64,000 bases of DNA. Source: Candidatus Saccharimonadota bacterium. Its GTDB lineage: Bacteria; Patescibacteriota; Saccharimonadia; Saccharimonadales; Saccharimonadaceae. The notes beneath the pieces were generated by a model. It had not been told where the DNA came from. It searched no databases and saw nothing but the letters and a program-made list of their open reading frames with translations. Positions 1,768 to 7,980 of this stretch are shown here, piece after piece (the stretch's first letter is position 1; each line of letters begins with the position of its first letter). The stretch covers positions 12,284-76,283 of the forward strand of contig JAFUBM010000005.1 in the NCBI GenBank assembly GCA_017460225.1. Direction: 5' to 3'. Both the position numbers and the translations under genes were made by a program.

Positions 1768-1803
1768 AATGACCCTAAAATGGGGGGGCATTTTAGGGTC
1801 ATT
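1768..1803. terminator. Bidirectional intrinsic terminator
   Basis: 15-bp perfect inverted repeat AATGACCCTAAAATG / CATTTTAGGGTCATT between convergent genes. Confidence 0.8.
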
Positions 1804-1804
1804 A

Positions 1805-1881
1805 TGGTGGCGGGGGTTCGATTTGAACGAACGACCTTTTGGTTATGAGCCAAACGAGCTACCAGGCTGCTCTACCCCGCG
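1805..1881 (-). tRNA. Initiator tRNA-fMet (CAT)
   Basis: CGCGGGGTAGAGCAGCCTGGTAGCTCG-TTTGG-CTCATAA-CCAAA-AGGTC-GTTCG-TTCAAAT-CGAAC-CCCCGCC-ACCA. Initiator-type body, 1:72 mismatch, encoded CCA. Confidence 0.92.
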
Positions 1882-1924
1882 ACGTACCTATTATTATATA
1901 GCACGGTATGAATAATGTCAAGGC

Positions 1925-7904: not shown

Positions 7905-7980
7905 GGGGGCGTAGCTCAGGGGTTAGAGCAGGCGGCTCATAACCGCTTGGTCGTTGGTTCGAGCCCAACCGCCCCCACCA
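7905..7980 (+). tRNA. tRNA with CAT anticodon, probably tRNA-Ile2 (lysidine type)
   Basis: GGGGGCG-TAGCTCAGGGGTTAGAGCAGGCGGCTCATAACCGCTTGGTCGTTGGTTCGAGCCCAAC-CGCCCCC-ACCA. Body resembles E. coli ileX; elongator Met is not excluded. Confidence 0.85.

What the first reader, a model, noticed from the sequence alone, without database searches (positions are those of the whole stretch)
1805..1881. Initiator tRNA lacks one of the three anticodon-stem G-C pairs and has a C1:C72 mismatch
Seen: the anticodon stem is UUUGG/CCAAA, so 29-41 is U-A rather than G-C, and the acceptor end is C1 opposite C72. Established: three consecutive G-C pairs (29-31/39-41) direct P-site selection and IF3 scrutiny, and C1:A72 is the usual formylation determinant; reduced-GC variants are known mainly from mycoplasmas and some other reduced genomes. 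Inference: initiator selection is relaxed, possibly co-evolving with the leaderless mRNAs seen in this window.
Basis: partly seen in the sequence, partly recalled or inferred. Interest (0 to 1): 0.55.

Follow-up and report, generated by a model that had tools for sequence, protein, structure and literature searches.

The report
Saccharibacterial initiator tRNA, lineage-typical variant
This is the genome's only start-of-translation tRNA. Its missing G-C pair is normal for this whole order of tiny bacteria, and its odd C-opposite-C end is shared by about half of its genus, so neither points to looser start-site selection.

Summary
Window 1805-1881 (-) encodes an initiator-type tRNA(CAU) with anticodon stem UUUGG/CCAAA (U29:A41, G30:C40, G31:C39) and C1 opposite C72.

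- **Only initiator:** it is the only one in a 98%-complete Saccharibacteria assembly. The other two CAU tRNAs are the lysidine tRNA-Ile type (TilS is present) and elongator Met.
- **U29:A41 is not special to this genome:** all 23 genus genomes recovered have it. So do about 240 of 245 initiators detected in 301 genomes of the order. Elsewhere in Patescibacteria, 29:41 is G:C in 32 genomes, A:U in 34 and U:A in 11.
- **Position 72 is variable:** it is C in 12 and A in 11 genus genomes, and mostly U in the order. It never forms a strong pair with position 1.
- **Selection machinery looks canonical:** 16S G1338/A1339 and the anti-SD, IF3 R131, the uS9 SKR tail and def-fmt are all present.
- **Leaderless link fails:** a strong leaderless-promoter signature exists but is confined to the genus, whereas U29:A41 is order-wide and C72 is polymorphic inside the genus.

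The "relaxed selection / leaderless co-evolution" inference is therefore not supported.

The scan reached the same conclusion earlier on another Saccharibacterium (e1-5270482). I found no paper describing a natural Y:R pair at 29:41.

The parts
1805..1881 (-). Initiator tRNA(fMet) gene, 77 nt, CCA encoded. It is the only initiator-type tRNA in the assembly.
   Evidence: ARAGORN. Rfam tRNA model, 60 bits. 87% identical to E. coli initiator copies. No other A11:U24-type CAU tRNA and no GGG/CCC CAU arm in the genome.
1838..1854 (-). Anticodon arm (positions 27-43): UUUGG CUCAUAA CCAAA. U29 is at window 1852 and A41 at 1840. G30:C40 and G31:C39 are kept. The anticodon CAU is at 1845-1847.
   Evidence: Sequence. 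Invariant in all 23 genus genomes recovered. T29 is found in about 240 of 245 order initiators.
1881..1881 (-). C1, which is unpaired.
   Evidence: Sequence. Position 1 is C in all genus sequences.
1809..1809 (-). C72, opposite C1 (a C.C mismatch). It is followed by A73 and CCA.
   Evidence: Sequence. Across the genus, position 72 is C in 12 genomes and A in 11.
1893..1921 (-). Consensus sigma-70-type promoter (TTGACA-17-TATAAT). The -10 box ends 11 nt before tRNA position 1.
   Evidence: Scan: 12 of 12 matches, against 0.3 expected in shuffles.
1768..1803 (-). Intrinsic-terminator-like hairpin (15 pairs) with a T-rich tail, directly after the CCA end.
   Evidence: Scan.

Best explanation
This is the cell's single, normally expressed initiator tRNA(fMet). 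It most likely works by the canonical bacterial route.

1. MetRS charges it via the CAU anticodon and A73.
2. The def-linked Fmt formylates it because 1:72 cannot form a strong pair, with G2:C71, C3:G70 and A11:U24 present.
3. The same mismatch keeps it away from EF-Tu and peptidyl-tRNA hydrolase.
4. IF2, IF3 and 16S G1338/A1339 place it in the P site through the retained G30:C40 and G31:C39 pairs.

The two deviations sit at positions where experiments show tolerance. The outer 29:41 pair is U:A, an old trait fixed in almost the whole order Saccharimonadales. Position 72 is C, one of several interchangeable non-pairing bases, and it toggles between A and C within this genus.

**Shown:** sequence, uniqueness, conservation, and presence of the partner genes.
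**Inferred:** charging, formylation and P-site behaviour.
For: **Identity**
- Identity elements are present.
- It is the sole initiator in a 98%-complete assembly.
- TilS is present, and the tRNA at 7905-7980 matches E. coli tRNA-Ile(CAU), so the three CAU tRNAs form the standard set.
- The gene has its own promoter and terminator.

**Conservation**
- In the genus every stem pair stays paired, with double changes at 3:70, 7:66, 50:64, 51:63 and 52:62. Pair 1:72 is never paired.
- In the order, 245 of 301 genomes match an initiator pattern, and only 5 have a non-T at position 29.
- In the phylum, G30:C40 and G31:C39 are kept in every match, while 29:41 is G:C, A:U or U:A.

**Partner genes**
- A def-fmt pair is present. 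The Fmt model has pLDDT 91, and its best PDB matches are Met-tRNA formyltransferases.
- infC is present with R131.
- uS9 ends in SKR.
- The assembly's own 16S 3' end carries G1338/A1339 and CCUCC.

**Literature**
- An engineered ua/GC/GC initiator sustains E. coli, and G30:C40 is the essential pair (PMC5389676).
- The absence of a strong 1:72 pair is sufficient for formylation (PMC5393177).
Against: - In E. coli the engineered 1st-UA initiator grows poorly at 22 C (PMC5389676). Plain neutrality is therefore not certain, and some compensation in these ribosomes may exist.
- The Fmt of this genus is about 35 residues shorter than other Fmt, and TIGR00460 scores it below its cut-off. Formylation is assumed, not shown.
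- IF3 has V in place of R129.
- The rest of the 16S P site (790, 966/967) is not assembled in this genome.
- There are no expression or modification data.
Confidence: 0.82

Rival explanations
1. Initiator selection is relaxed in this organism: the missing G-C pair weakens IF3 and 16S proofreading, and this co-evolved with heavy use of leaderless mRNAs.
For: - The genome does have many leaderless-type starts. A TANAAT box ends 6 or 7 nt before the first ATG of 101 of 598 long ORFs, against a background of about 3 per position.
- The 1st-UA initiator is cold-sensitive in E. coli.
- The IF3 R129 position is V.
Against: - U29:A41 is order-wide. The TATAAT-N6-ATG excess is confined to the genus. 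All 25 genus genomes searched (G000 plus 24 relatives) give 68-127 hits against 2-14 in the control. The 16 other families give 11-32 hits against 1-18.
- Across the phylum sample, the median excess is 13 for G:C genomes, 9 for A:U and 4 for U:A.
- IF3 R131, the uS9 SKR tail, 16S G1338/A1339 and the anti-SD are canonical. These differ from the mycoplasma pattern summarised in PMC11775629.
- infC probably still starts at ATT, which would need IF3 discrimination (inference).
Confidence: 0.08
2. The variant carries a real cost, and undetected lineage-specific changes in the ribosome or initiation factors compensate for it, as proposed for rhizobial ribosomes and their A29:U41 initiator. Fidelity stays normal, but the recognition of pair 29:41 is re-wired.
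For: - Cold sensitivity of 1st-UA in E. coli.
- The variant is fixed in about 98% of detected order initiators, including environmental lineages.
- Rhizobial ribosomes load 1st-AU tRNA better than E. coli ribosomes do (PMC5389676).
Against: - No compensating change appears at the sites tested: 16S 1337-1340 is GGAA whatever the 29:41 state, IF3 keeps R131, and uS9 keeps SKR.
- About 60% of the other Patescibacteria matched also lack G29:C41, which fits simple tolerance of changes at the outer pair.
Confidence: 0.25
3. The gene is not the working initiator. It is a decaying copy or an elongator, and the true canonical initiator lies in the unassembled 2% of the genome.
For: The assembly has 20 contigs, and ARAGORN finds no tRNA-Pro and no tmRNA, so it is incomplete for RNA genes.
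Against: - The same single gene, with the same stem, is found in 23 genus genomes, some in 3-10 contigs.
- Almost no canonical alternative turns up in 301 order genomes.
- The gene shows compensatory substitutions, a perfect promoter and a terminator.
- The other two CAU tRNAs are accounted for.
Confidence: 0.02

Closest known systems
E. coli initiator tRNA(fMet) (metZWV / metY)
   Same: - 87% identical over 77 nt, with the same length, D loop, variable loop and T loop.
- C1 is unpaired, and G2:C71, C3:G70, A11:U24, G30:C40, G31:C39, the CUCAUAA loop and A73-CCA all match.
   Different: - 29:41 is U:A instead of G:C, and position 42 differs.
- Position 72 is C instead of A.
- G9 is replaced by A, and two T-stem pairs differ.
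Natural 3GC-variant initiators of alpha-proteobacteria and some mycoplasmas (au/GC/GC, GC/GC/gu, au/GC/gu; Samhita 2012 and Shetty 2017, as cited in PMC5389676)
   Same: The outer pair of the three is not G:C, while the essential middle G30:C40 pair is kept. The variant is fixed in a whole lineage rather than in one genome.
   Different: - Those variants keep purine:pyrimidine at 29:41 (A:U). Here it is pyrimidine:purine (U:A), which that paper lists only as an engineered mutant.
- The mycoplasma-type changes (IF3 R131 to P/F/Y, uS9 SKR to TKR; PMC11775629) are absent here.
Engineered E. coli '1st UA' (ua/GC/GC) initiator mutant (Shetty et al. 2017, PMC5389676)
   Same: It has the same three pairs, U29:A41 / G30:C40 / G31:C39. 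It sustains E. coli as the sole initiator at 37 C.
   Different: It is a laboratory construct in an E. coli tRNA body and grows poorly at 22 C. The tRNA here is the wild-type state of an entire order.

Membership tests
Bacterial initiator tRNA (tRNA-fMet) | CAU anticodon in a CUCAUAA loop | tested here: met
Bacterial initiator tRNA (tRNA-fMet) | No strong Watson-Crick pair at 1:72 (usually C1xA72) | tested here: met
   C1xC72. 1:72 is unpaired in 14 of 14 distinct genus sequences. The identity of the mismatch differs from the usual one.
Bacterial initiator tRNA (tRNA-fMet) | G2:C71 and C3:G70 (formylation determinants) and A11:U24 | tested here: met
   and alignment A3.
Bacterial initiator tRNA (tRNA-fMet) | Three consecutive G:C pairs at 29-31:39-41 | tested here: not met
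   Only G30:C40 and G31:C39 are present; 29:41 is U:A. The experimentally essential middle pair is present (PMC5389676).
Bacterial initiator tRNA (tRNA-fMet) | Closest characterised relative is an initiator, not an elongator Met or Ile2 | tested here: met
   87% identity at full length to the 4-copy E. coli tRNA-Met genes, found in a metZWV-like triplet. The other window CAU tRNA matches tRNA-Ile instead.
Bacterial initiator tRNA (tRNA-fMet) | Cognate formylation and deformylation genes in the genome | tested here: met
   A def (139.7 bits) and fmt-like pair is present. The fmt-like protein has PF00551 plus PF02911, and its fold matches Fmt with TMq 0.82. TIGR00460 gives 129.7 bits, below its cut-off of 201.5.
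Bacterial initiator tRNA (tRNA-fMet) | Actually formylated and used in the P site at start codons | not testable with these tools
   This needs tRNA biochemistry or profiling in a cultured relative.
Mycoplasma-type relaxed initiation system (unusual initiator plus co-evolved IF3/uS9) | IF3 R131 (E. coli numbering) replaced by P/F/Y | tested here: not met
   BLASTP against E. coli IF3: LRFRGRE aligns with IVFRGRE. R131 is kept and only R129 changes to V.
Mycoplasma-type relaxed initiation system (unusual initiator plus co-evolved IF3/uS9) | uS9 C-terminal SKR changed to TKR | tested here: not met
   uS9 ends ...KKEQFSKR.
Mycoplasma-type relaxed initiation system (unusual initiator plus co-evolved IF3/uS9) | Altered 16S G1338/A1339 | tested here: not met
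   G000 C19:49-71 reads GAAGTCGGAATCGCTAGTAATCG, identical to the pattern I used for E. coli 1331-1353. That pattern and its numbering are typed from my own memory of the E. coli 16S sequence, anchored on the 1392-1406 primer site. GGAA at 1337-1340 is near-invariant in 107 phylum genomes.
Natural R:Y-preserving 3GC variants (alpha-proteobacteria / mycoplasma) | Purine:pyrimidine retained at all three positions | tested here: not met
   29:41 is U:A, which is Y:R.

The most novel reading that the evidence does not exclude
Saccharimonadales, and with A:U or U:A about 60% of the other Patescibacteria matched, run translation initiation without the first of the three G:C pairs. This includes a natural pyrimidine:purine pair at 29:41, which breaks the published R:Y generalisation. 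They do so with unchanged 16S G1338/A1339, IF3 R131 and uS9 SKR. That would mean either that the G1338 contact to pair 29:41 is dispensable in nature or that an unknown compensation exists. In this genus an Fmt that has lost about 35 residues, including the basic 'PxGRG' loop-1 segment, would also formylate initiators with C or A at 72 and non-C:G pairs at 3:70. That would amount to a minimal recognition mode.
Probability: 0.25. Interest if true: 0.5.

Novelty: new variant of a known kind. Interest (0 to 1): 0.3.

Why it matters
It corrects an over-reading. This tRNA does not mark a peculiar initiation system in this genome.

For specialists, the wider pattern is a modest extension of the list of natural exceptions to the 3GC rule.
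- An entire order uses U29:A41, a Y:R pair known in the literature I could search only as an engineered mutant that is cold-sensitive in E. coli.
- Most of the candidate phyla radiation sampled lacks G29:C41, while the rRNA and factor residues that read it are unchanged.
- This offers natural material for asking what the outer G:C pair is for, and for designing orthogonal initiators.

Tried and rejected
1. **A second canonical initiator.** ARAGORN on all 20 contigs and regex scans for GGGCTCATAACCC and for A11:U24-type CAU tRNAs found none.

2. **16S in the assembly.** An RF00177 search of the assembly found nothing, and four of five genus mates also lacked 16S. A 23-nt pattern search then showed that contig C19 starts with the last ~245 nt of 16S.

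3. **Co-variation of 16S 1338/1339 with the 29:41 state across the phylum.** None was found. The only G1338A genome (G483) has a canonical 3GC initiator.

4. **A short Fmt as the explanation for U29:A41 or the variable position 72.** Rejected.
   - Other Saccharimonadales families have Fmt whose match runs from model position 2-3 over about 300 positions.
   - So do four other genera of the same family.
   - These genomes carry U29:A41 (one has 3GC), with U, A or G at position 72.
   - The short form is genus-specific.

5. **Association of first-G:C loss with leaderless promoters.** Rejected with a crude TATAAT-N6-ATG versus reversed-pattern count.

6. **Thermodynamic folding.** The unmodified RNA does not fold into the cloverleaf, so I rely on the covariance model and on covariation.

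7. **Literature.** Searches for initiator tRNA together with Saccharibacteria, Patescibacteria or CPR found nothing relevant. PMC3420168 (Samhita 2012) is not held.

Full report
**Observation**

ARAGORN and Rfam both call a tRNA(CAU) at window 1805-1881 on the minus strand. Read 5'->3', it parses as follows:
- Acceptor CGCGGGG / CCCCGCC.
- D stem GAGC/GCUC.
- Anticodon arm UUUGG-CUCAUAA-CCAAA.
- Variable loop AGGUC.
- T arm GUUCG-UUCAAAU-CGAAC.
- A73, then CCA.

So C1 faces C72 (window 1881 and 1809). Pairs 2-7:66-71 are Watson-Crick. 11:24 is A:U. The three diagnostic pairs are U29:A41 (1852/1840), G30:C40 and G31:C39.

The gene is 87% identical over its full length to E. coli tRNA-Met genes that occur about four times per genome and lie in a triplet. 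These are the initiator copies. It differs from them at positions 9, 29, 41, 42 and 72 and at two T-stem pairs.

It has a perfect TTGACA-17-TATAAT promoter (1921->1893) and a 15-pair terminator hairpin directly after the CCA end (1803->1768).

**Is it the initiator, and the only one?**

The window lies in a 694-kb, 20-contig assembly rated 98% complete. Earlier notes and the record titles of close matches identify it as a gut Saccharibacterium.

ARAGORN finds 40 tRNAs, three with CAU:
- This gene.
- Window 7905-7980, which matches E. coli tRNA-Ile(CAU) at 87%. TilS is encoded.
- An elongator-type tRNA on contig C5 with G1:U72 and C11:G24.

No GGG/CCC CAU arm and no second A11:U24-type CAU tRNA exists anywhere in the assembly.

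**How special is it?**

*Genus.* All 23 genomes that yielded the gene have the identical UUUGG/CCAAA stem. Position 72 is C in 12 and A in 11. Every other stem pair stays paired, with double substitutions at 3:70, 7:66, 50:64, 51:63 and 52:62. C72 and A72 occur on the same T-stem and acceptor backgrounds, which suggests repeated switching.

*Order.* An initiator pattern that leaves the anticodon stem and 1:72 free matched 245 of 301 genomes. The same pattern requiring a non-T at position 29 matched only 5, all GGG/CCC. About 240 of 245 (98%) therefore carry U29, and wherever sequences were listed, A41.
- 1:72 in the order is mostly C.U. C.A, U.G, U.U, A.A and U:A also occur. C:G does not.

*Phylum.* In a sample of 181 genomes, 85 matched. 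My hand count outside the order gives 29:41 as G:C in 32, A:U in 34 and U:A in 11. G30:C40 and G31:C39 are kept in every match.

Most hits were Saccharibacteria. Others were Nomura-, Morani-, Uhr-, Parcu- and Berkelbacteria and a few non-CPR records, such as Sphingomonas sp. BE123 and Neorhizobium alkalisoli.

*Unpublished genomes.* The tallies include four genomes flagged unpublished (G057, G287, G305, G471).

**The selection machinery**

- *def-fmt.* A def-fmt pair lies on contig C19. The fmt product is 260 aa with both formyltransferase domains. Its AlphaFold model (pLDDT 91) is closest to Met-tRNA formyltransferases (4iqf, TMq 0.82; 2fmt).
- *IF3.* infC is present. Aligned to E. coli IF3, it keeps F130-R131-G132-R133, and only R129 changes to V. 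Its reading frame has no ATG or GTG and only one TTG, five codons before the conserved NGEIR. An ATT sits 8 nt after AAAGGA, so the IF3-dependent non-canonical start is probably kept (inference).
- *uS9.* It ends in FSKR.
- *16S.* Contig C19 begins with the last ~245 nt of 16S rRNA. It reads GUCGGAAUCG at 1335-1344, so G1338 and A1339 are canonical, and it ends with the CCUCC anti-SD. The E. coli numbering used here is from my own memory of the E. coli 16S sequence, anchored on the 1392-1406 primer site. A genus mate with more of the 16S reads the same.
- *Phylum.* 1337-1340 is GGAA in nearly all 107 genomes with this stretch assembled, whatever their 29:41 state.

These are the sites reported to change in mycoplasmas with unusual initiators: IF3 R131 to P/F/Y, and uS9 SKR to TKR (PMC11775629 citing Ayyub 2018). 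None is changed here.

**The leaderless link**

Among 598 first ATGs of long ORFs, a TANAAT hexamer ends exactly 6 nt (75 cases) or 7 nt (26 cases) upstream, against about 3 per other position. SD-like motifs also peak at 4-10 nt.

The signature does not track the tRNA features. I used TATAAT-N6-ATG counts against the reversed pattern as a crude proxy.
- Every genus genome searched (G000 plus 24 relatives) scores 68-127 against 2-14 in the control, regardless of C72 or A72.
- Sixteen other families of the order score 11-32 against 1-18. Fourteen of them yielded an initiator: 12 with U29:A41 and two (G039, G040) with 3GC.
- In the phylum sample the median excess is 13 for G:C genomes, 9 for A:U and 4 for U:A.

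U29:A41 is therefore far older than the leaderless habit of this genus, and C72 is polymorphic within it.

**Mechanism**

The best-supported reading is ordinary function through the determinants that experiments show to be indispensable.
- In E. coli, G30:C40 is the essential pair of the three. An engineered ua/GC/GC initiator sustains cells lacking all four wild-type genes (PMC5389676).
- For formylation, EF-Tu rejection and Pth resistance, what matters is the absence of a strong 1:72 pair, not its identity (PMC5393177).

One caveat: the E. coli 1st-UA strain grows poorly at 22 C. Tolerance may therefore rest on compensation I could not see, as proposed for rhizobial ribosomes and their A29:U41 initiator.

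**Novelty**

The papers I could search list natural exceptions only as au/GC/GC, GC/GC/gu and au/GC/gu in alpha-proteobacteria and mycoplasmas, all purine:pyrimidine. I found no paper linking initiator tRNA with Saccharibacteria, Patescibacteria or CPR.

The order-wide Y:R pair and the phylum-wide erosion of the first pair look undescribed, but they extend a known theme. The scan had already noted this tRNA type in other Saccharibacteria, and one follow-up (e1-5270482) reached the same conclusion. My order counts confirm it independently.

**Verdict**

The gene is an ordinary sole initiator carrying the lineage-typical variant. The co-evolution inference is not supported. Interest is low to moderate.

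Noticed in passing
G000 contig C19:11105-11887 (-), read as L033:1501-2283:-, outside the window: The Fmt of this genus is a short form.
- It is 260 aa in G000. The 120 closest database homologues listed are 248-283 aa, and many are annotated as 'hypothetical'.
- It lacks about 35 residues between beta2 and beta4 of the N-terminal domain, including the basic 'PDxPxGRG' loop-1 segment of E. coli Fmt.
- Other genera of the same family, and other Saccharimonadales and CPR, match TIGR00460 from model position 2-3 over about 250-310 positions.
- TIGR00460 scores the short form at 130-160 bits, below its cut-off of 201.5.
   Followed up: partly
Whole genome G000 and the 24 genus relatives searched: A very strong leaderless-promoter signature, with TATAAT or TANAAT ending exactly 6-7 nt before ATG. 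G000 scores 87 against 2 in the reversed control. Genus mates score 68-127. Other families of the order score only 11-32. It looks like a genus-level shift in transcript architecture.
   Followed up: partly
G000 contig C4:66482-66973 (-), read as L035: The infC frame has no ATG or GTG and only one TTG near its 5' end, five codons before the conserved NGEIR. An ATT lies 8 nt downstream of AAAGGA, so the gene probably keeps the AUU-type autoregulated start. IF3 has V at the E. coli R129 position.
   Followed up: partly
window 7905-7980 (+): The second CAU tRNA of the window is the lysidine-type tRNA-Ile2. It has G27.U43 and is 87% identical to E. coli tRNA-Ile(CAU). TilS is encoded at C3:114121-114687.
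   Followed up: yes
Whole genome G000: ARAGORN finds 40 tRNAs but no tRNA-Pro and no tmRNA in an assembly rated 98% complete. Only the last ~245 nt of 16S are assembled, at the start of C19, followed by tRNA-Ala and tRNA-Ile.
   Followed up: no
G483 (phylum sample), 16S stretch at C2:26699-26721: This genome reads GAAGCTGAAATCG, meaning A at 16S position 1338. Its initiator has the canonical GGG/CCC stem. It was the only such case among 107 genomes.
   Followed up: no
G411:C26:24644-24715: A second initiator-like copy whose anticodon stem halves do not match (CGTGG / CCCGA). It may be a chimeric or decaying duplicate, or an assembly artefact.
   Followed up: no
L090 (Sphingomonas sp. BE123) and L099 (Neorhizobium alkalisoli): Cultured alpha-proteobacterial isolates also carry an initiator-type gene with U29:A41 rather than the A29:U41 reported for the class. 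I did not check whether these are extra copies.
   Followed up: no
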